Virus genome (UHGV): UHGV-0262927
Reading direction: 5' to 3' (one strand)
DNA: 24,255 nt
Origin: a virus
This document shows, in pieces, positions 7,822 through 14,939 of the stretch (position 1 is the first letter of the stretch; every line of letters starts with the position of its first letter). The position numbers and the translations under genes are program-made. The notes below the pieces were generated by a model. The model had not been told where the DNA came from. It was given only the letters and a program-made list of their open reading frames with translations, and ran no database searches.

Positions 7822-7974
7822 ATGACATGCAAATATACTATTTTATGTGATGGCAAAATATATGATGCCTTACAATTAGCAAGAGAATGCATTCAACTTT
7901 GGGACTCTTATATTCCAGAGCTTGATGCTTTGAAAGCAACAGTGGTTGATAATGACCCGACGAAAACTATATAA
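7822..7974 (+). CDS. small hypothetical ORF (50 aa), begins 5 nt after the previous stop
   Basis: ATG 7822, TAA 7972-7974; below the track length threshold; weak support. Confidence 0.2.
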   Translation: MTCKYTILCDGKIYDALQLARECIQLWDSYIPELDALKATVVDNDPTKTI

Positions 7975-7979
7975 GAACA

Positions 7980-8387
7980 TTATTTTAGTTTTGAAATTAA
8001 CTTTTCCCATAAAGATTGTTTTTTACCAACTGGTGATGAATTCGCCCATGAAGGATTCATCAGGTCACTTGGTAGCGAATATTTATGATCATCCTCATCA
8101 ACGACTACAGCATGTAGCTTCTCAGCTATCTGCAACATTTTACAGTAAAGGGTTTCGTCAGGATGCTTTGTTGAAATCCTTCCATCACTCCAGTCAAGCC
8201 AAGGTTCATCGAGTTCACTTTGACCACTCCATAGAGCAAAAAAATCACCATTCTTGTTATCTATGGAGAGTTCTTTATCATCATTAACAAGCTGGAGCCA
8301 TTCTTCACTACTGATTGGAACACTTGCGCTATCGAACCAATGTTCCGTTCTTACTATGTGAAGCTCCCAGCCCATAACCACCTCCAT
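7980..8387 (-). CDS. hypothetical protein (135 aa), acidic and Trp-rich
   Basis: ORF in track; overlapping plus ORF 7946-8287 judged the artefact because this one sits in the minus-strand gene run downstream of alpA. Confidence 0.45.
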   Translation of the reverse strand: MEVVMGWELHIVRTEHWFDSASVPISSEEWLQLVNDDKELSIDNKNGDFFALWSGQSELDEPWLDWSDGRISTKHPDETLYCKMLQIAEKLHAVVVDEDDHKYSLPSDLMNPSWANSSPVGKKQSLWEKLISKLK

Positions 8388-8424
8388 GTTTTTGATATAG
8401 ATACGTTATTATACAGAACACTTA

Positions 8425-8667
8425 TCAGTCAATGAGATCTTCTGGCGAAACCCGGTCACATGCCATTTTCTCAAGTAATCTTTGTAATCTTTTCATTTTC
8501 AACTTATGTGCTTTTTTCTCACCAATCTCCTGATAGTATTCTTCACGACGTTCGTTGACCACGCTCCTGAACTTTTTCAAAAGCTGTTCAAGTGTTTTGA
8601 TGTCAGTAGTTGCGGCTTCCGCTTGGATTTTTTTATACATATACATCACATGAAATTCATCAATCAT
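8425..8667 (-). CDS. hypothetical protein (80 aa)
   Basis: ORF in track; part of the co-directional small-gene run downstream of alpA. Confidence 0.4.
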   Translation of the reverse strand: MIDEFHVMYMYKKIQAEAATTDIKTLEQLLKKFRSVVNERREEYYQEIGEKKAHKLKMKRLQRLLEKMACDRVSPEDLID

Positions 8668-8740
8668 TTTTTTGCTCCTTGGACAGACAAATAAGATTTG
8701 TTATCAGCCCCAAGAAGGGGCCGATAGACATCAGAATATA

Positions 8741-9037
8741 TCAGCATATTGATTCCGCCAGAACAGTGTAGTGCATTTTGGCTAATGCCTGCCTAACCTC
8801 TTTAAAATCCACCTCAGATAGTTTTTCAGCCGCGTTCTTTTTCCATGCTTTTTTCAGAAGATGCTTCTCAGCATTTCTCATCGCCAAATCGATTAGCTTA
8901 CAAACAAACTCATGATCCATTACATGCGTTATAATCATATTGCTGGTCGTTTTATCCTTTGAGTTAAAAATCTCAGCGTAGACATGCAAGGACACAACAT
9001 AAAAGATTTCAGTATTTTTATTTTTAAATGTATTCAT
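8741..9037 (-). CDS. hypothetical protein (98 aa)
   Basis: ORF in track; same co-directional run. Confidence 0.4.
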   Translation of the reverse strand: MNTFKNKNTEIFYVVSLHVYAEIFNSKDKTTSNMIITHVMDHEFVCKLIDLAMRNAEKHLLKKAWKKNAAEKLSEVDFKEVRQALAKMHYTVLAESIC

Positions 9038-9089
9038 TTTTATTTCCTCTTTAGTTTAATATTGGAATAGCAAAATATTTGTATGAGCA

Positions 9090-9392
9090 TTAGCGGTATA
9101 CACACTTATAGACAATCCAAAGCTGACGAAGGTGTTGCTTTACCTTACAGTGGTTTACTTCTCCATAAATCCGATTCCTTTTGCCTTCTTCTGTGTCATC
9201 GTAAAAATGATATCGCGTTTTTTTAATGATACTTTCCATAATGTCATTCATATTGTATTTATTGTTGAGAAAATAATAAAAATCATCTGGTGCATTCCGC
9301 CGTAATCCGTCCATATAGTTCCTGAAATAACATTCGGCTTGTTCAATAAACTCTTTTATCGTAATAAGTTCTATCTTCATATTTTTCTCCAT
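9090..9392 (-). CDS. hypothetical protein (100 aa)
   Basis: ORF in track; immediately downstream of alpA on the same strand. Confidence 0.4.
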   Translation of the reverse strand: MEKNMKIELITIKEFIEQAECYFRNYMDGLRRNAPDDFYYFLNNKYNMNDIMESIIKKTRYHFYDDTEEGKRNRIYGEVNHCKVKQHLRQLWIVYKCVYR

Positions 9393-9461
9393 TATTGTTT
9401 AGGGTAATAAGATGCCCTGTGCGAACAGATATTTGTTCGACACGAGATCTTGTTTCTTTTT

Positions 9462-9680
9462 TTATGCAGCGTTCTGGCGTGAGTTTCGAATAGTCGTCTC
9501 AATCCATTCATCAATCTCACTTTCGACAAAGGCGACACATCTTGGCTCTATTTTTACTCTGTCTGGAAAGTTTCCTTCCTTAATACGTTCATATAAAGTC
9601 GTGCGACTAAATCCCACTCGATTTAAAACATCAGGAACGCGGATAAATCGTTTTACGCTGGTTTCACTATTTTCTTTCAT
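9462..9680 (-). CDS. alpA: AlpA-family phage/island transcriptional regulator (72 aa)
   Basis: Characteristic sequence ...IRVPDVLNRVGFSRTTLYERIKEGNFPDRVKIEPRCVAFVESEIDEWI... matching the AlpA pattern as I recall it. Confidence 0.8.
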   Translation of the reverse strand: MKENSETSVKRFIRVPDVLNRVGFSRTTLYERIKEGNFPDRVKIEPRCVAFVESEIDEWIETTIRNSRQNAA

Positions 9681-9857
9681 TGTCTGTCCTCTATTATTGT
9701 AAGTAATCTCTATGAGATTTCGTTTTCTCTATGTTGTTTCGACGTGAACAATGATAGCGATTTTGCTTATGGTAATTTAGGGACGTTCAAAGAAGTTTTT
9801 TTTGAAAAATTCGAAGGGGCACGGATGGAAAGATAACGGTTAACACTGGATGCGATC

Positions 9858-9888
9858 ACGTTCGCACGGAGCGAACGTAACCCTTTTT
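9858..9888 (+). terminator. Hairpin ACGTTCGC-acgga-GCGAACGT followed by T-run (plus-strand sense); terminator-like
   Basis: 8-bp perfect stem then AACCCTTTTTAC; sits between the 297-aa gene and alpA; no plus-strand gene upstream, so function is uncertain. Confidence 0.3.
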
Positions 9889-9895
9889 ACTTGGC

Positions 9896-10789
9896 TTATT
9901 TTTTCTTATTCCTGTCGTCTTCTACATGCTTTTCAACAGGGGAGTCTTTCAAGTGGTTGTTTTCCATCATGTAATCTTCAAGCGACTTCAGATAGCTCGC
10001 ATCCGTCAGAAAAGCCATTGCTAACGGGTAATCTGTAGCCTTGAGCATTCCTTCATCACGATCGTTGTCGCTGTCCTCGTGAAGCAGCGAGGAAATCAGT
10101 GAAAGCGGGATTTTAATGCCGTTATCTTCTCCCCAGAAGATCAGGTCCATCATCGGGATAAGATGATATTCAATAATTTTTCTGAACGTGCTTTTGCCGA
10201 AACGATACTCTCTTGGAGCTGGAGACGTCATCTTAAGCTGCCTCTTCCATTGAGGGATCAGCACTTTCAGATGTTCAATGATCTCTTCGGTTGATGCTTC
10301 TTCCAGATGAATATCGACAGTAATACGTGAAAGATTATTAAGGGATGTCTCTTTTAGATACTCGGACAGAAATTCGGATTCACTTAACGCGGAAAGCTCA
10401 GGCGTGGCTTCGGTTAATGCCAGCGTTTTCGCATAAAATTGCGCGTGGCGTCGTGTCGTAGGATTTACCGCGTAGGTTCTGGCAAGCTCATGTCCAAGGG
10501 TAGCGGTATCACCACTGAAAAAGATTTCACCGCTGAGGATCTTGTTGCGGTAATCATCCAGCATTAATCGGTTAAAGGTAGGTATGGTGTTCCGGCTCAA
10601 CAACATTCTGTAAGCCAAGATGCGCCGCTCAACCTCAACATAAAACTGCTGTAAGGAGAGTTTCTCTATCGCCTCATAGCGTTCAACATTAAACCATGCT
10701 TCCAGTGCTTTCCTGATTTCACTTCTTTTCATCCATCCTCCAACAACCCATTTCCTTTGATATATCTTCACAGGATCCGTTTGGAACAA
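9896..10789 (-). CDS. hypothetical protein (297 aa), upstream of alpA
   Basis: ORF in track with moderate GC; not integrase-like by eye. Confidence 0.5.
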   Translation of the reverse strand: MFQTDPVKIYQRKWVVGGWMKRSEIRKALEAWFNVERYEAIEKLSLQQFYVEVERRILAYRMLLSRNTIPTFNRLMLDDYRNKILSGEIFFSGDTATLGHELARTYAVNPTTRRHAQFYAKTLALTEATPELSALSESEFLSEYLKETSLNNLSRITVDIHLEEASTEEIIEHLKVLIPQWKRQLKMTSPAPREYRFGKSTFRKIIEYHLIPMMDLIFWGEDNGIKIPLSLISSLLHEDSDNDRDEGMLKATDYPLAMAFLTDASYLKSLEDYMMENNHLKDSPVEKHVEDDRNKKK

Positions 10790-11010
10790 TTGAAGTTCAA
10801 CTGTTTTGTCATCAGAGACGAAGGAATGGCTAAGTTGTTGTTAAGAGTGTGAACTCGAGAGCATAAAAGTGGATGCCCAACGCGCAGCAAAATGGTAAAA
10901 AACAGCATCAGTAGTAAGAAAAATTGAACGAGAGAAAGGAATTTTAATGCAGGGATTTATGCATGACAAAATCAAAAATGCTTTGTAAGTGATTGATTTT
11001 GTTGAATGAT

Positions 11011-11072
11011 TGGCGGAGAGAGGGGGATTTGAACCCCCGGTGGAGTTGCCCCCACTCCGGTTTTCGAGACCG
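11011..11072 (-). tRNA. Truncated tRNA-Ser(CGA) 3' segment (anticodon stem to CCA, ~62 nt); att-site direct repeat, not a functional gene
   Basis: Minus-strand reading GGTCTCGAAAACCGGAGTGGGGGCAACTCCACCGGGGGTTCAAATCCCCCTCTCTCCGCCA shows anticodon loop CUCGAAA, long variable arm, T-arm GGGGG-TTCAAAT-CCCCC and acceptor 3' strand with CCA; no D-arm or 5' acceptor strand upstream. Confidence 0.8.
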
Positions 11073-11563
11073 ATGATACAGAGTCGAAAAATCAAAGAGT
11101 TAAAAATTTTTCTTGGAATAAATGTCTTAAAATCGTACACGAAAAATCAATAAATTACATAACATTAAAGAAGAATATTCCAAGCCTTCTTGAGGCCACC
11201 ACCTGTTTTCAGGTGTCATTCAGATGTGATTTACCCCAGATTGGGAAAGCACGCTTTTTTTTTCTCAGCTTATTCCGTTTTGCCTGTGTGTTGAATAATT
11301 CCACTGCAGTTATATAAAATCGGTAACGGCTGGAAATCATTCAATACTCGCACTATCGAAAGTTCACCAGCCAACCGCAGCACGTCCTGCATACGTCGTG
11401 TCTGCGGTTTTTCTTTTTCGCTTACATTGTGTCTGGTTCTTCCAGCCACTCAATATCAGGTGCAGTTGATGTATCAACACGGTTCAGCAACACCCGATAC
11501 TTTTTCCAGGCTTCCAGCAACGGGGTTTCTTCCTCCGCCGTTGCATATACAGCTCACCTTTTT

Positions 11564-11857
11564 TCACCCACGATTAACCAACAGCCAGACCAGCAGACAC
11601 GCCACCACCGGCACAGCAAAATCCATCAGGCTTGCCACATCCCACGCGCGCGGATCAAAACCGCCCCACCACGGCATATTCATACGCTTGCCATGCACGA
11701 ACATTTCAATCCAGCGATATTCTGCCTGGGTGTGTTCACGCGCAATGAAGAACGTACAACCGGCTATCGCCCCGTAAGCCCAGTTTCCGGTAAAAAGACC
11801 AGCCAGTACCTGCACCGCTACGGCACAAAGCGCATGAAGTATCGACGTGATATCCAT
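11564..11857 (-). CDS. small membrane protein (97 aa, two predicted hydrophobic helices); prophage terminal cargo
   Basis: Hydrophobic stretches ILHALCAVAVQVLAGLF and FAVPVVACLLVWLLV; the overlapping 352-aa plus ORF is judged an artefact. Confidence 0.45.
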   Translation of the reverse strand: MDITSILHALCAVAVQVLAGLFTGNWAYGAIAGCTFFIAREHTQAEYRWIEMFVHGKRMNMPWWGGFDPRAWDVASLMDFAVPVVACLLVWLLVNRG

Positions 11858-11866
11858 CTGCTATCC

Positions 11867-12145
11867 TTAAAACCACTCCCTGAGCGGGCGCTCTGGTGTA
11901 ACCACCCACTCACGGAACACGGAATCATCAAATCCATCGTCAAGAAGACGGATATTAACAAAGTACCCTTCGTCTCGCGTGTATTCTGGTTCTCCGTCAT
12001 CAGGAACATCTGTCTCCCTGAACGTAAAACCAATCTCATCAACCAGAACGGCATTCTGCAGCTCTTCGTCCTCTTCCCAGTTAAGTTTCCTGAGAAATGC
12101 CCTGAAATCTGCTTTATCACTGAAACGCAACGTGAAATCTCTCAC
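11867..12145 (-). CDS. small highly acidic protein (92 aa); prophage terminal cargo
   Basis: About 25 of 92 residues are Asp/Glu by count of the translation; directly downstream of the tail-fibre gene. Confidence 0.5.
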   Translation of the reverse strand: MRDFTLRFSDKADFRAFLRKLNWEEDEELQNAVLVDEIGFTFRETDVPDDGEPEYTRDEGYFVNIRLLDDGFDDSVFREWVVTPERPLREWF

Positions 12146-14214
12146 TCCACAACCTCCCCAAGCTGCGCATCTGTTAGCTCTTTATGCCAGAGACGAAAAT
12201 TCCTCACATGCCCAAATAAATGGCGTAATCCTGCTGTAGTTTGTCCACCAATGCGAATGGTTGCTGTACTCCGGATATATTCCCATTTGGTTTTAGTTTC
12301 GCTGCTTAACTTACCGTTACTGACTACACATGTGGACCGTTCGGACTTTACCCGCATACCAATAAGCATTTTTTCCAGCCCGGCATTTTCATTTATTCGT
12401 CGGTTTGAACCACCTATATCACAATACGGAAAACCGTCGTACCCACCTGATGAACCAAACCCCATTACGATCCCCGCATCTGCCTGATGCCGGTATGTGT
12501 CAAAAACACGCGGTGCTGCATTTGGCGTTTTATACCAGTTCTTATGTACCTCACAAAGAACCGTAAAAGGAAGATTATAAAGATTATTCTTAATCGGAAC
12601 TGTAACCATATCGCTTGCCCGCGTTACCGGTGCCGTCCCCGTAACAATAAAAGATGATGCGCCTGTACCAGCCTCAATCTGTGGAGTGGTTACATCGAGA
12701 TAATCCCCTGATGCAACCATCTGCCCTGTATCCGGAGAATACTGGACAAAACCACCAACCGTATTTTCTGTTGTATCTGCTTTTAATGTAGCCTCAAAAA
12801 ATATCCAGCCAGTTGCATCATCCTTAACAGACCTTGCTGTAACACGGCTTGTCTGACCTGTCTTGCTAATTATGCGGGTGGTAAGGTTCAGGTTTGCTGC
12901 TCCTATTGATGTCCTTACCTCCCCATCATAATGTTCAAATAAAATACGAACGGCGATATTATCAACTTCACTTTTTACCCGACAGGATATAGTTACATGC
13001 TTTTCGTCCCCTGAAGTATCAACCCCTCCGGTACTCGAATACAGTCCGATAATGGTATGCGCTTTACTTGTACCAACAATCGAATCCTGTACGACAAACC
13101 GGCCATAATTAAACCCGAAACTATCTGTGCCTGTTTCTGTAACGTCCAGTGAAGTTGACTTATTCCACTTCGAAGGGTCTGTACTGTTCTGGAAGAAGTT
13201 CGTTCTTTGTCCCTCAATAAGCAGGCCATCACACTCAAATCGCGGCTCATTAATTTCCGCCGTTTTCAGTTCGCCAGATTTGTTGATATATGTTGCCGTT
13301 GATGCGCGACTGAAATTAACCTGTTTATCACTGGCAACCTGAACCACATTATCGCCAATCTTCACTTTTTTATAACCCGGAGAATAGCCCGTAATCATAT
13401 CCAGCGAATCATTAAAGGGTATCCACACATCCGGCAGCGGCTGTAAAACATATCTGTACGGCTCTGCTGTCTGGTTTGCGTATTCTCTGGCAGCATCTTC
13501 ACTTGCTTTTGCTGCCGTCTGGCTTGCTGCCGATGCTTTCGCCGAGTTCGCCGCCGCTGTTTCGCTCACCTTTGCGTTGGCTTCACTGTCTTTGGCATTC
13601 GTCTCACTGGTTTTCGCTGCCGTCTGGCTGGATTTTGCGTTTTTTTCGCTGGCCTTTGTGGCTGTCTCGCTATTTTTCGCGTTGGTTTCTGATTTTTTGG
13701 CTGCTGTCGCGGAGTTTGCCGATGCAGTCTGCGAGGCCGCTGCCGCCTGTGCGCTGTTAGCTGCATTCGTTTCTGAGGTTTTCGCCGCATTCTTCGATGA
13801 GGCTGCTGCCGTTTCGGATTTCTTTGCCGCCGCTGCACTCTGTGATGACGCTCCGGCATGACGTGCCACTTCATTCACCATCAGCTCAAAACGGCGCAGT
13901 GCCTCCGGACGGGCATCATCCTCCGTCATGGCACCGAGAAAATCATTCAGCGTACCTGGTCTGGAACCTTCATAGACGGTAATGGTCCCGGCATGTGAAG
14001 GTGGAAAACCTTCAACCAGCAGGGTGACGCTGTACTGGCCATACTCAACATCCATGCTGTAACGCCCGGCTTCATCCGGATTTTCAGAGGCCACCGTGTT
14101 CACCAGTACCGTGGTGCTGTTACGCTTTGCCTTCAGTTGAATAGTGCAGTTCTGTATTGGTTTTCCCGCACCATCTTTCAGCACACCTGAGATTTTTACT
14201 GCTGCCATATCCAC
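12142..14214 (-). CDS. stf: Side tail fibre protein, lambda Stf-like N-terminus (690 aa)
   Basis: N-terminus MAAVKISGVLKDGAGKPIQNCTIQLKA resembles lambda-family tail-fibre N-termini as I recall them; long Ala/Ser/Thr/Lys-rich repeat tract (KxSETNA-like units). Confidence 0.8.
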   Translation of the reverse strand: MDMAAVKISGVLKDGAGKPIQNCTIQLKAKRNSTTVLVNTVASENPDEAGRYSMDVEYGQYSVTLLVEGFPPSHAGTITVYEGSRPGTLNDFLGAMTEDDARPEALRRFELMVNEVARHAGASSQSAAAAKKSETAAASSKNAAKTSETNAANSAQAAAASQTASANSATAAKKSETNAKNSETATKASEKNAKSSQTAAKTSETNAKDSEANAKVSETAAANSAKASAASQTAAKASEDAAREYANQTAEPYRYVLQPLPDVWIPFNDSLDMITGYSPGYKKVKIGDNVVQVASDKQVNFSRASTATYINKSGELKTAEINEPRFECDGLLIEGQRTNFFQNSTDPSKWNKSTSLDVTETGTDSFGFNYGRFVVQDSIVGTSKAHTIIGLYSSTGGVDTSGDEKHVTISCRVKSEVDNIAVRILFEHYDGEVRTSIGAANLNLTTRIISKTGQTSRVTARSVKDDATGWIFFEATLKADTTENTVGGFVQYSPDTGQMVASGDYLDVTTPQIEAGTGASSFIVTGTAPVTRASDMVTVPIKNNLYNLPFTVLCEVHKNWYKTPNAAPRVFDTYRHQADAGIVMGFGSSGGYDGFPYCDIGGSNRRINENAGLEKMLIGMRVKSERSTCVVSNGKLSSETKTKWEYIRSTATIRIGGQTTAGLRHLFGHVRNFRLWHKELTDAQLGEVVE
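13480..13860. repeat. In-gene imperfect tandem repeats encoding the low-complexity tract of the tail fibre
   Basis: Periodic DNA pattern generating overlapping artefactual ORFs on both strands (13476-13760, 13577-13861, 13566-13874). Confidence 0.5.
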
Positions 14215-14220
14215 TCCACA

Positions 14221-14245
14221 AAAAAGCCCGCCTGAACCGGCGGGC
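14221..14245 (-). terminator. Rho-independent terminator downstream of lom
   Basis: Minus strand: GCCCGCC-ggttca-GGCGGGC followed by TTTTT. Confidence 0.6.
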
Positions 14246-14272
14246 TGTCATAACACTGTGTTACCTGGCTAA

Positions 14273-14872
14273 TCAGAACTTATAACCGACACCCACGATG
14301 AAACCGTCAGTGCGCCAGTCGCCACTGCCGGAGCCTTCATAAGCAATATCAATGGCCACGGATTCGGTCGGGTTAAACTGCACGCCAGCTCCCCACGCCA
14401 GAGACGTGTTGCTGTGGCGACCGTCATCACTTCCGGTCAGCACATCGTGCGTTTTCCCCTTGTTGTCAGTTACGCGGAGATAATCCCCGGAGAACGTCGA
14501 CACACGGCTGTAAGCCACACCTGCCATCGCATAAGCACTGAACCATTCATTCACGCGTACAGATGGCCCCGCCATCACGCTGAACCAGCGGTTACGCACG
14601 GAATCTTCATGCCAGCGGGTATCGCTGTAGTGCGTTTTTTGCTCATCCTCAGCATTGGCATAACTGAAGGACGTAATCAGCCCCAGCGCGTCCGTAAACT
14701 CATAACGGTATTTCACGTTAATCCCGTTCAGATTATCGCTGCCGGGAGCGTTCGTACGGGCATGAAGATACCCCGCGCTCAGTGTGGACTGATGTTCAGA
14801 CGCCCATGCAGGCGCACCGGATACGGACAGACAGATGGCTGCGGACAAAATGGCTGCACATAATTTACGCAT
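14273..14872 (-). CDS. lom: Outer-membrane protein Lom (Ail/Lom family, 199 aa)
   Basis: Signal-peptide-like N-terminus MRKLCAAILSAAICLSVSGAPAWA, beta-barrel-like alternating pattern, C-terminal ...GVGYKF; position between J and stf as in lambda. Confidence 0.85.
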   Translation of the reverse strand: MRKLCAAILSAAICLSVSGAPAWASEHQSTLSAGYLHARTNAPGSDNLNGINVKYRYEFTDALGLITSFSYANAEDEQKTHYSDTRWHEDSVRNRWFSVMAGPSVRVNEWFSAYAMAGVAYSRVSTFSGDYLRVTDNKGKTHDVLTGSDDGRHSNTSLAWGAGVQFNPTESVAIDIAYEGSGSGDWRTDGFIVGVGYKF

Positions 14873-14895
14873 AATTACCTCTCGCTTTTCTGCAA

Positions 14896-14920
14896 TAAAA
14901 AAGGCGCCATTTCTGGCGCC
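14896..14920 (-). terminator. Rho-independent terminator downstream of J and upstream of lom
   Basis: Minus strand: GGCGCC-agaaat-GGCGCC followed by TTTTTTAT. Confidence 0.6.
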
Positions 14921-14939
14921 CGTATTGGGGTTATAAAAT

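What the first reader, a model, noticed from the sequence alone, without database searches (positions are those of the whole stretch)
7980..9680. AlpA regulator followed by four small same-strand ORFs, with no integrase in sight
alpA (9462-9680) heads a run of 100-, 98-, 80- and 135-aa ORFs on the minus strand. AlpA-family proteins normally act beside an integrase/excisionase in P4-like or phage-inducible islands, but none is present within 11 kb. The small ORFs have no recognisable motifs and could be AlpA-controlled accessory, interference or anti-defence factors.
Basis: partly seen in the sequence, partly recalled or inferred. Interest (0 to 1): 0.4.

Follow-up and report, generated by a model that had tools for sequence, protein, structure and literature searches.

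The report
Right end of serU genomic island
The AlpA gene and its small neighbours are the well-known right-hand end of the E. coli "serU" genomic island, whose integrase sits at the opposite end about 19 kb away (outside the window), and one of the small genes is the known H-NS antagonist H-NST, so the finding is ordinary.

Summary
The ORFs exist as described and are real genes (dN/dS 0.06-0.37), and the window holds no integrase. The puzzle comes from where the window ends and how the island is built. Window 1-11072 is 99.97% identical to the right half of a ~22-kb island inserted at the 3' end of tRNA-Ser serU in E. coli. In complete genomes the island's P4-type integrase lies at the far end, about 19 kb from alpA and about 9.5-10.8 kb left of the window start.

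This is the published serU island, a relative of the ROD21-like (EARL) islands. Their hallmark is an integrase at one att site and, at the other, an AlpA-type directionality factor (SEN1998) plus an ~840-bp unknown gene (DUF6387).

- The 80-aa ORF is H-NST, a truncated H-NS antagonist, with the functional residues A16, L30, R60 and R63.
- The 96/100- and 98-aa ORFs match ROD21 SEN1997 and SEN1996, conserved island genes of unknown function.
- The 131/135-aa ORF is variable cargo with an unannotated but widespread domain.

After excision, alpA/DUF6387 and int flank attP about 1.5 kb apart. In the window a lambdoid prophage has inserted in tandem at serU, leaving a 62-nt tRNA fragment. Nothing links the small ORFs to anti-defence. 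Novelty: already known. Interest is low.

The parts
11011..11024 (.). Right att repeat of the island: TGGCGGAGAGAGGG, the last 14 nt of tRNA-Ser (serU) read on the + strand.
   Evidence: It occurs once in the window, against 0.01 expected by chance. The same 14-mer lies 165 bp upstream of the integrase at the left end of the island in L001. Joining the two outer flanks across one copy gives a sequence that matches in one piece at 100% coverage and 99.5% identity in the best records, and at >=80% coverage in 3855 of 5426 E. coli genomes.
11011..11072 (-). 62-nt 3' fragment of tRNA-Ser(CGA) serU, left behind by a second, tandem insertion of a lambdoid prophage.
   Evidence: Identity to L001 stops at L001 23173, inside the 90-nt tRNA gene. 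ARAGORN and Rfam find no complete tRNA in the window. In strain CU37RT-2 the same tandem layout has the intact serU beyond the prophage integrase.
10935..11010 (-). Conserved att-proximal arm. It holds the inverted repeat AAAATCAA/TTGATTTT and a promoter-like site, TTGTCA-17-TAAAAT (10969-10941), that faces into DUF6387. It is a candidate binding region for integrase arm domains and the RDF, and a candidate outward promoter.
   Evidence: This block is conserved in an alignment of seven tRNA-Ser-linked loci from five genera, while the sequence downstream of it diverges. The promoter scan scored the site 10 of 12. Its function is inferred; in ROD21 the RDF binds close to the direct repeats (PMC8844411).
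9896..10732 (-). DUF6387 gene (278 aa from the RefSeq start; the ORF extends to 10789). It is the 'conserved ~843-bp gene of unknown function' that accompanies the RDF in EARL islands (SEN1999-like).
   Evidence: Pfam PF19924, E 5e-53. It lies next to alpA in every related locus that has enough flank. dN/dS is 0.07-0.11. Literature: PMC6035254, PMC10763509.
9858..9878 (.). Hairpin of 8-12 bp directly after the DUF6387 stop codon. It looks like a terminator only when read on the + strand.
   Evidence: fold z-score -2.35.
9462..9680 (-). alpA: a 72-aa winged-helix AlpA/Xis-type protein, homologue of the ROD21 recombination directionality factor SEN1998.
   Evidence: Pfam PF05930, E 3e-17. PHROG 'excisionase and transcriptional regulator', E 2e-12. 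PDB matches are an AlpA-family protein, 8c3t (E 3e-6), and weakly TorI, 1z4h (E 0.14, not significant). It is 58-67% identical to the S. Enteritidis protein of the same length. F24, Y30, P39 and R47, highlighted for RDF activity in PMC8844411, are all present at the same positions (read from the sequence).
9409..9451 (-). Stem-loop in the alpA-p96 spacer, with no U-tract after it.
   Evidence: RNA fold gives -16.9 kcal/mol, z-score -2.95. Its function is unknown.
9090..9380 (-). p96, a 96-aa predicted helical-bundle protein (100 aa from the outer ATG at 9392). It is the conserved gene after the RDF and corresponds to ROD21 SEN1997.
8741..9037 (-). p98, a 98-aa protein of unknown function. It corresponds to ROD21 SEN1996.
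   Evidence: 88% identical to the next gene in S. Enteritidis. 48 homologues, Enterobacterales only, with no Pfam match. PHROG 19730, unknown function. dN/dS 0.09-0.17. Profile comparison shows no relation to p96.
8702..8726 (-). Conserved GC-rich hairpin (GGCCCC-N5-GGGGCT) just after the p98 stop. It marks the end of the conserved alpA-p96-p98 unit and the start of variable cargo, and is a probable terminator or stabiliser.
   Evidence: Fold z-score -3.18, with 0 of 200 shuffles folding as well. It is conserved in L004 and in ROD21 (L012), where different genes follow it, and in L007, L008 and L010. DNA homology to ROD21 ends at window 8700.
8425..8667 (-). hnsT: H-NST, an 80-aa truncated H-NS homologue with the oligomerisation domain only. 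It is a known antagonist of H-NS silencing.
   Evidence: Pfam PF22470 (H-NS N-terminal domain) E 1e-11, with no C-terminal DNA-binding domain. NCBIfam H-NS/StpA matches cover the N-terminal part only. RefSeq names it 'H-NS family histone-like protein'. The 80-aa length, the serU location and residues A16, L30, R60 and R63 match published H-NST (PMC3897749, PMC7074111).
7980..8375 (-). p131, an acidic (pI 4.7) alpha/beta protein (135 aa from the outer ATG at 8387). It is variable cargo, not part of the island core.

Best explanation
The region is the tRNA-proximal (right) end of the E. coli serU genomic island. This is a ~22-kb, AT-rich, integrative and mobilisable island related to the ROD21-like (EARL) islands. 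It sits at the 3' end of tRNA-Ser serU between 14-bp direct repeats.

Shown here:
- The P4-type tyrosine integrase lies at the far end of the island, about 19 kb from alpA and outside the window.
- DUF6387 and alpA lie just inside the near att site.
- The window has lost the rest of serU to a lambdoid prophage that inserted in tandem.

Inferred from the ROD21 homologue SEN1998 and from the AlpA/Xis/TorI family: AlpA acts as the recombination directionality factor. It would bind the att arms and help the integrase excise the island. In the excised circle, alpA/DUF6387 and int flank attP and are only about 1.5 kb apart, so the missing-integrase puzzle disappears.

alpA, p96 and p98 form a conserved unit that ends at a conserved hairpin. 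p96 and p98 are island core genes of unknown function, the equivalents of SEN1997 and SEN1996.

Downstream lies variable cargo. One gene is hnsT, whose product forms heteromers with H-NS and relieves silencing of AT-rich DNA; this was shown for H-NST of EPEC and is inferred here from the shared functional residues. The other is p131, a member of a widespread uncharacterised domain family.
For: - Window 1-11072 is 99.97% identical to L001 12103-23173.
- The L001 annotation reads zinT, integrase, pilV, pilin, TraD, MobQ..., RepL, DUF4756, p131, H-NS-like, p98, p96, HTH/AlpA, DUF6387, tRNA-Ser.
- Pfam confirms the integrase domains (Arm-DNA-bind_3, Phage_int_M, Phage_integrase), MobA/MobL and TraD.
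- A 14-bp direct repeat bounds the island, and the reconstructed empty site is present in 3855 of 5426 genomes.
- The same island-plus-prophage tandem, with both integrases, occurs in CU37RT-2.
- The gene order DUF6387, AlpA (72 aa), 96 aa, 85 aa and then cargo recurs in S. Enteritidis ROD21 and in ICEKp258.2 (PMC10763509).
- The literature describes the integrase and the RDF at opposite att sites, with an 843-bp unknown gene beside the RDF (PMC6035254). SEN1998 binds attL and attR (PMC8844411). H-NST and the 22.5-kb serU island are described in PMC7074111 and PMC3897749.
- Mosaic pattern against ROD21: p96 is 95% identical, RepL 98% and DUF4756 92%. The AlpA N-terminal winged helix is only about 50% identical (estimated by eye), while its last 22 residues match at 20 of 22, and DUF6387 is 40% identical. 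The att-proximal genes therefore vary with integrase/att specificity (Asn versus Ser tRNA), as expected for a directionality factor.
- dN/dS is well below 1 for all five genes tested.
Against: - The left half of the island, including the integrase, is not in the window. No complete genome in the collection has exactly this island variant next to this prophage (best coverage 71%), so an intact integrase in the source strain is an inference.
- No experiment addresses excision of the serU island or its AlpA.
- In ROD21, deleting SEN1998 lowers excision only slightly and does not change integrase expression (PMC8844411), so the RDF role is modest even in the model island.
- IE3 excises although its homologue has a mutated start codon (PMC8844411).
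- One paper describes the serU island as having no mobilisation genes (PMC5521745). The CFT073-type variant has its relaxase gene broken by an IS66-family element.
- The functions of p96, p98, p131 and DUF6387 remain unknown.
Confidence: 0.85

Rival explanations
1. AlpA acts mainly as a transcription factor, an activator or processive antiterminator, for the small genes downstream of it. On this view the cluster is an AlpA-controlled accessory operon. This is not exclusive of an RDF role.
For: The genes are tightly spaced on one strand, with 49-81 bp gaps. Stable hairpins without U-tracts follow DUF6387, alpA and p98. From my own knowledge, not tested here: K-12 AlpA activates intA transcription, and Pseudomonas aeruginosa AlpA is an antiterminator.
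Against: Between this island and ROD21, the AlpA DNA-binding half and DUF6387 diverge together with integrase/att specificity. The alpA 3' end, the alpA-p96 spacer, p96 and p98 stay 87-95% identical. A regulator whose target lay in that conserved spacer would be expected to keep its recognition helix. SEN1998 binds the att regions specifically (PMC8844411). No consensus promoter or terminator lies between alpA and p96.
Confidence: 0.15
2. The small ORFs are phage-interference or anti-defence factors of a P4-like or phage-inducible satellite.
For: The slot downstream of alpA-p96-p98 is a variable cargo site. It holds a SMODS/SLATT conflict system in ROD21 (PMC10655114). The island also carries a Septu defence pair. 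The proteins are small and lack annotation. A lambdoid prophage lies next door.
Against: PADLOC, Pfam and NCBIfam gave no significant match to any defence or anti-defence family for p96, p98 or p131. The module has no DNA match among 50,697 phage records, and the DUF6387 protein gave only one weak match to a mis-filed genome contig. The island encodes a relaxase, TraD and type IV pilin rather than capsid-redirecting or primase genes, and ROD21 transfers by conjugation (PMC3976249, title and abstract). p96 and p98 are under purifying selection, not diversifying selection. One of the four ORFs is H-NST, whose function is known.
Confidence: 0.08
3. The cluster is an orphan remnant. On this view the island in the source strain has lost its integrase end, and alpA is a decaying leftover.
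For: The window does not show the left end. serU islands vary, with IS insertions and a broken relaxase gene in the CFT073 type. The region is described as a recombination hotspot (PMC5521745).
Against: All six genes are intact. The 11 kb present is 99.97% identical to an island whose integrase and both att repeats are intact. The tandem-prophage genome also keeps the island integrase.
Confidence: 0.05

Closest known systems
serU island of pathogenic E. coli (CFT073, 536; the H-NST/Hfp/TcpC island described by Williamson & Free 2005, as reviewed in PMC7074111)
   Same: Same insertion site (3' end of serU, between zinT and mtfA), same ~22-kb size, same backbone (integrase, pilV/pilin, TraD, MobQ, RepL-like, DUF4756, H-NST, AlpA, DUF6387) and 95-100% DNA identity to many sequenced E. 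coli.
   Different: The cargo differs. This variant carries a Septu pair and p131. It lacks tcpC and the full-length H-NS homologue Hfp seen in the CFT073-type variant. Its H-NST has Ala16, the active EPEC-like form, whereas CFT073 H-NST is reported to have Val16 and to be inactive (PMC3897749). A prophage has inserted in tandem.
[quoted passage not shown]
   Same: Integrase at one att site, and a 72-aa AlpA-type RDF plus the DUF6387 gene at the other. Two to four small hypothetical ORFs follow the RDF. They share H-NS/H-NST homologues, DUF4756, a RepL-like gene, MobQ, TraD and type IV pilin genes. p96, p98, RepL and DUF4756 are 88-98% identical to their ROD21 counterparts (PMC6035254, PMC10763509).
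   Different: EARL islands use Asn-tRNA genes and a different integrase. Here the site is Ser-tRNA. The att-proximal genes are divergent: DUF6387 is 40% identical and AlpA 58-67%. The review PMC7074111 treats the serU island as a derivative, not a member.
AlpA/Xis/TorI/Vis-type recombination directionality factors (Pfam PF05930), including AlpA of prophage CP4-57
   Same: Small size, the winged-helix family match and the conserved residues F24, Y30, P39 and R47 (PMC8844411).
   Different: In P4, CP4-57 and many other islands the gene lies next to the integrase. Here it lies at the opposite end of the integrated element. Its pI is near neutral (7.9), against 10.2 reported for SEN1998.
H-NST of EPEC E2348/69 (island IE3)
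   Same: 80 aa, H-NS oligomerisation domain only, and A16, L30, R60 and R63 all present (PMC3897749, PMC7074111).
   Different: It is encoded at serU rather than asnW. Its activity has not been tested for this allele, and I did not align it directly to the E2348/69 sequence.

Membership tests
serU island / ROD21-like (EARL-related) integrative mobilisable islands | Insertion at the 3' end of a tRNA gene, flanked by direct repeats. | tested here: met
   The 14-bp repeat TGGCGGAGAGAGGG lies at the serU 3' end (window 11011-11024) and at the left end of the island in L001. The reconstructed empty site is found intact in 3855 genomes.
serU island / ROD21-like (EARL-related) integrative mobilisable islands | P4-type tyrosine integrase next to one att site. 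| tested here: met
   This is met in the reference genomes that carry the same DNA, not in the window itself. L001 1340-2602 has Arm-DNA-bind_3, Phage_int_M and Phage_integrase domains. CU37RT-2 also has it. The window starts about 9.5 kb to the right of it.
serU island / ROD21-like (EARL-related) integrative mobilisable islands | Putative RDF (SEN1998-like, 60-72 aa) at the opposite att site, accompanied by a conserved ~840-bp gene of unknown function. | tested here: met
   alpA (72 aa) and DUF6387 (837 bp from the RefSeq start) lie within 1.6 kb of the att repeat. The linkage holds in the related loci that have enough flank beyond DUF6387. Definition taken from PMC6035254 and PMC10763509.
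serU island / ROD21-like (EARL-related) integrative mobilisable islands | MobA/MobL (MOBQ) relaxase, TraD and type IV pilin genes. | tested here: met
   They are present in L001, outside the window. In the CFT073-type variant the relaxase gene is interrupted by an IS66-family element.
EARL family in the strict sense | Integration at an Asn-tRNA gene by the EARL-type integrase, with the conserved 24-37-bp repeat. | tested here: not met
   The site is tRNA-Ser(CGA) and the repeat is 14 bp. DUF6387 is only 40% identical to its ROD21 counterpart. PMC7074111 states that the serU island has a different integrase and integration site.
AlpA/Xis-type recombination directionality factor | Small winged-helix protein of the PF05930 family with the residues important for TorI RDF activity. 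| tested here: met
   PF05930 E 3e-17. F24, Y30, P39 and R47 are present (sequence; positions from PMC8844411). PDB match 8c3t, E 3e-6.
AlpA/Xis-type recombination directionality factor | Binds the att arms and stimulates integrase-mediated excision. | not testable with these tools
   The support is indirect only. The ROD21 homologue binds attL and attR (PMC8844411). The DNA-binding half co-varies with att/integrase type. A conserved arm block lies next to the att repeat.
H-NST (truncated H-NS antagonist) | About 80 aa, with the H-NS N-terminal oligomerisation domain only and no C-terminal DNA-binding domain. | tested here: met
   PF22470 covers residues 1-78, and PF00816 is absent. NCBIfam H-NS/StpA matches cover N-terminal positions only.
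H-NST (truncated H-NS antagonist) | Residues needed for activity: A16, L30, R60 and also R63. | tested here: met
   All four are read directly from the translation. Their roles are described in PMC3897749 and PMC7074111.
H-NST (truncated H-NS antagonist) | Forms heteromers with H-NS and derepresses H-NS-silenced promoters. | not testable with these tools
   This was shown for the EPEC protein only (PMC3897749, PMC7074111).
P4-like satellites / phage-inducible chromosomal islands | Satellite functions such as a primase-helicase or pri-rep gene, capsid-size redirection or packaging genes, and a helper-responsive regulator next to the integrase. | tested here: not met
   None is annotated in the full island. 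The module is essentially absent from phage records. The island has conjugative mobilisation genes instead. This is a check of the annotation, not an exhaustive search.

The most novel reading that the evidence does not exclude
Two readings are not excluded. First, DUF6387, AlpA, p96 and p98 form a conserved core of the serU/EARL islands whose function has never been assigned. DUF6387 and the DNA-binding half of AlpA swap together with the integrase when att specificity changes. DUF6387 could therefore be a third, unrecognised component of the excision/integration machinery. p96 and p98, which stay nearly invariant across integrase types, could be regulators of excision, transfer or H-NS/H-NST activity. 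Second, and separately, p131 has a SirA/ZipA-like fold and belongs to a large unannotated family whose members often carry transmembrane tails. It could be a new kind of host-protein-binding adaptor.
Probability: 0.2. Interest if true: 0.45.

Novelty: already known. Interest (0 to 1): 0.13.

Why it matters
As a discovery it matters little. The island, its split excision module and H-NST are all published, and these exact protein sequences occur on hundreds of public contigs. The practical lesson concerns scanning. An AlpA gene without an integrase can simply be one end of an island whose integrase lies at the other att site, and a tandem prophage insertion can hide the tRNA landmark. The open points are modest. 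DUF6387, SEN1997-like p96 and SEN1996-like p98 are conserved across a clinically relevant island family (ROD21, ICEKp258.2, the serU island) and still have no function. The way DUF6387 changes together with the integrase type gives a testable hint.

Tried and rejected
- Pfam, NCBIfam, PHROGs and PADLOC scans of p96, p98 and p131 gave nothing above noise. PHROG families 38005 and 19730 are of unknown function.
- PDB sequence searches with single sequences and with profiles gave no credible match. The cytochrome c555 match for p98 had no passing stretch.
- Ten longer relatives of p131 had no Pfam domain.
- I looked for shared motifs between the attL and attR arms. Only the 14-bp repeat stands out; the shared 8-mers such as TTTATGCA are within what chance would give.
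- The promoter and terminator scan found fewer sites than in shuffled sequence. No clear alpA promoter was found.
- Rfam found no RNA family in the window.
- Searches of the plasmid and phage collections show that the module is chromosomal. The six plasmid 'hits' include mis-filed chromosomes.
- The phage-satellite idea was rejected, as set out under the rival explanations.
Full report
**Observation**

| ORF | Coordinates | Length |
|---|---|---|
| alpA | 9462-9680 | 72 aa |
| p96 | 9090-9392 | 100 aa |
| p98 | 8741-9037 | 98 aa |
| hnsT | 8425-8667 | 80 aa |
| p131 | 7980-8387 | 135 aa |

Good ribosome-binding sites and the RefSeq annotation of identical DNA favour inner start codons for two of them. 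These are 9380, giving 96 aa ('p96'), and 8375, giving 131 aa ('p131'). Gaps between the genes are 49-81 bp.

They are real genes. Each has conserved homologues in several genera of Enterobacterales. Pairwise dN/dS is 0.06-0.37 for alpA, p96, p98, the 80-aa gene and the upstream DUF6387 gene; p131 was not tested.

No integrase is encoded anywhere in the window (Pfam scans; annotation of the equivalent DNA).

Two points in the observation need correcting. First, the same-strand run starts one gene earlier, with a DUF6387 gene at 9896-10732. Second, the 80-aa ORF does have a recognisable motif, the H-NS N-terminal domain (PF22470, E 1e-11).

**Where the window comes from**

G+C content is 30-39% up to about 9.5 kb and rises to 55-60% beyond 13 kb.

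Window 1-11072 is 99.97% identical to one stretch of E. coli FDAARGOS_1372 (locus L001). There the DNA is the right half of an island between zinT and tRNA-Ser serU. From left to right the island carries:

- a tyrosine integrase
- pilV and a type IV pilin gene
- traD
- a MobQ relaxase gene
- lipoprotein genes
- an HNH/AAA-ATPase pair
- a RepL-like gene
- DUF4756
- then, on the other strand, p131, the H-NS-like 80-aa gene, p98, p96, alpA and DUF6387
- tRNA-Ser

Pfam confirms a P4-type integrase architecture (Arm-DNA-bind_3, Phage_int_M, Phage_integrase), a MobA/MobL relaxase and TraD.

The island is bounded by a 14-bp direct repeat, TGGCGGAGAGAGGG, which is the 3' end of serU. One copy lies 165 bp upstream of the integrase gene. 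The other lies at the tRNA, at window 11011-11024.

I joined the two outer flanks across a single copy of the repeat and searched with the result. It matched in one piece at 100% coverage and 99.5% identity in the best records, and at >=80% coverage in 3855 of 5426 complete E. coli genomes. The boundaries are therefore exact, and the island is 21,964 bp in L001.

The integrase is 18.96 kb from alpA. In window terms that is about 9.5-10.8 kb left of position 1.

**Right of the island**

In the window, identity to L001 stops 62 nt into the tRNA gene, at window 11072. This explains why ARAGORN and Rfam find no tRNA.

What follows is the tail end of a lambdoid prophage, all on the minus strand: tail-fibre, Lom, J, I, K, L, M and tape-measure genes.

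Strain CU37RT-2 has the same tandem layout: zinT, island integrase, island, DUF6387, a ~48-kb prophage, the prophage's own integrase, intact serU, mtfA, asnT and the yersiniabactin island.

**What it is**

This is the published serU island. The review PMC7074111 describes it as a 22.5-kb island of pathogenic E. coli that encodes H-NST and Hfp. It calls the island related to the ROD21-like (EARL) islands but with a different integrase and integration site.

The EARL papers give the family's signature. [quoted passage not shown] That signature is alpA plus DUF6387.

A S. Enteritidis contig carrying ROD21 shows the same gene order: DUF6387 (291 aa), AlpA (72 aa), a 96-aa gene and an 85-aa gene, followed by SMODS and SLATT genes. 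On the opposite strand come H-NS, DUF4756, a 263-aa gene and a RepL-like gene. With the published gene numbers (SEN1998 is the RDF, SEN1995/SEN1994 the SMODS/SLATT pair, SEN1993 the H-NS homologue; PMC10655114), p96 corresponds to SEN1997 and p98 to SEN1996.

ICEKp258.2 of Klebsiella ST258 likewise has DUF6387, AlpA and then four small hypothetical genes before its H-NS homologue (PMC10763509). 'AlpA followed by four small same-strand ORFs' is thus the normal look of this end of the family.

The 3-kb module occurs in 540 of 5426 complete E. coli genomes, always on the chromosome. It is essentially absent from plasmid and phage collections.

**The individual genes**

*AlpA.* It matches PF05930 (E 3e-17), PHROG 'excisionase and transcriptional regulator' families and an AlpA-family structure, 8c3t; the TorI (1z4h) hit at E 0.14 is not significant. 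It has the same length as SEN1998. It carries F24, Y30, P39 and R47 at the positions that PMC8844411 highlights as important for RDF activity.

*The 80-aa protein.* This is H-NST. It has the H-NS oligomerisation domain only, is 80 residues long and is encoded at serU. It has A16, L30, R60 and R63, the residues needed for anti-silencing and DNA binding in the EPEC protein (PMC3897749, PMC7074111). The CFT073 allele is reported to carry the inactivating Val16; this allele has Ala16.

**Sub-structure of the cluster**

DNA homology to ROD21 runs from inside alpA (window 9652) to window 8700 at 87% identity and then stops. It ends just past a GC-rich hairpin (8702-8726; z-score -3.18).

That hairpin is conserved in loci where different cargo follows it. 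I therefore read alpA-p96-p98 as one conserved unit that ends at this hairpin. On that reading hnsT-p131 occupies a variable cargo slot, the slot that holds SMODS/SLATT in ROD21. This transcript structure is inferred, not shown.

**How it most likely works**

The following are shown here: the island's boundaries, the position of its integrase, the gene order, and the homologies.

The rest is inferred. AlpA would act as the directionality factor. It would bind the att arms with the integrase and promote excision, as the ROD21 homologue's specific binding to attL and attR suggests (PMC8844411).

In the excised circle, the alpA start is about 1.3 kb from the att repeat and the int start is 165 bp from it. 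The two halves of the excision module therefore face each other across attP.

A comparison with ROD21 supports the RDF reading.

| Protein | Identity to ROD21 counterpart |
|---|---|
| p96 | 95% |
| p98 | 88% |
| DUF4756 | 92% |
| RepL-like | 98% |
| AlpA, last 22 residues | 20 of 22 |
| AlpA, winged-helix half | about 50% (estimated by eye) |
| DUF6387 | 40% |

The att-proximal genes therefore change together with the integrase and tRNA target (Asn versus Ser), while everything downstream stays the same. This is what one expects if AlpA recognises att-arm DNA. It is the opposite of what one expects if its target were the conserved spacer before p96.

A 75-bp block next to the att repeat (10935-11010) is conserved among seven Ser-tRNA-linked loci from five genera. 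It contains an inverted repeat and the only good promoter-like site on this strand. It is a candidate arm-site and promoter region.

H-NST would counter H-NS silencing of this very AT-rich island and of other loci, by forming heteromers with H-NS (shown for EPEC H-NST; inferred here).

**Caveats**

- The integrase end is not in the window, so its presence in the source strain is inferred.
- The RDF effect in ROD21 is small, and IE3 excises without an intact homologue (PMC8844411).
- The functions of DUF6387, p96, p98 and p131 are unknown.

**Rivals**

- AlpA as regulator or antiterminator of the small genes. This is possible alongside an RDF role, but the mosaic argument disfavours it.
- Anti-defence or satellite factors. 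I found no support in defence, phage or structure searches. The island has conjugative rather than satellite functions, and p96 and p98 are under purifying selection.
- An orphan remnant. This is unlikely given intact genes and near-identity to a complete island.

**Verdict**

One ORF is the known H-NST. The finding is already known and of low interest. The only residual novelty is the unassigned function of the conserved DUF6387, p96 and p98 genes and of the cargo protein p131.

Noticed in passing
window 2070-4004 (- strand): A Septu anti-phage defence pair: PtuA, an AAA ATPase (2739-4004; PADLOC E 9e-147), and PtuB, an HNH nuclease (2070-2735; E 1e-85). The cassette is absent from ROD21, where the flanking sequences are contiguous, so it appears to be cargo inserted between repeat copies.
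   Followed up: partly
window 1462-1749, 4156-4321, 4658-4943 and 5067-5155: A repeat-rich region lies upstream of the RepL-like gene (5214-6011). There are 166-265-bp direct repeats on both sides of the Septu cassette. The palindrome GTGATTGTTGCCAACAATCAC occurs five times. Four tandem 21-23-bp units each contain CTATGTTCGAACATAG, just before repL. These look like iterons or operators and could be an origin or a regulatory array. PMC10655114 reports that the ROD21 RepL-like protein SEN1990 is not involved in replication.
   Followed up: partly
window 11011-24255: A lambdoid prophage (tail fibre, Lom, J, I, K, L, M, tape measure) is inserted at serU in tandem with the island. It leaves a 62-nt tRNA fragment between the two elements. 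The fragment differs from the L001 serU sequence at one base. Whether the two elements can excise together, or whether their integrases cross-react, was not examined.
   Followed up: partly
window 9462-10732 compared with L012 6340-7584: There is a mosaic breakpoint inside alpA. DUF6387 and the N-terminal winged-helix half of AlpA are divergent from ROD21 (40% and about 50%), while the AlpA C-terminus and everything downstream are 88-98% identical. DUF6387 thus co-varies with integrase/att type, which hints at a role in integration or excision.
   Followed up: partly
window 9090-9146 (C-terminus of p96): The last 18 residues of p96 (KVKQHLRQLWIVYKCVYR) are almost invariant across homologues that are otherwise only 50-55% identical. 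This could be a binding motif or an overlapping nucleotide signal. I did not check conservation at synonymous sites.
   Followed up: no
L008 8161-9935 (Citrobacter youngae), also L007 and L010: In tRNA-Ser(UGA)-linked relatives, AlpA is followed by a different set of four small, mostly acidic ORFs before H-NST. The first is a remote homologue of p96 (hhalign probability 82%, E 1e-5). The second shares only 16% identity with p98 but sits at the same position. The small genes therefore evolve fast while keeping their position.
   Followed up: partly
window 7980-8375 and proteins P0315-P0459: The N-terminal ~100 residues of p131 (motifs MGW/Y-E/D-L-HITR, PWLDW, TKxPD, GDDGE) define a large family with no Pfam entry: 1293 cluster representatives at E<=1e-3. 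Several of the longer members read have hydrophobic, probably transmembrane C-terminal extensions.
   Followed up: partly
L002 2916-6958 (E. coli CU37RT-2): In the tcpC-carrying (CFT073-type) variant of the island, the MobA/MobL relaxase gene is split by an IS66-family element (ISEc23). This may explain why one paper describes the serU island as lacking mobilisation genes (PMC5521745). The variant identical to the window has an intact relaxase gene.
   Followed up: no
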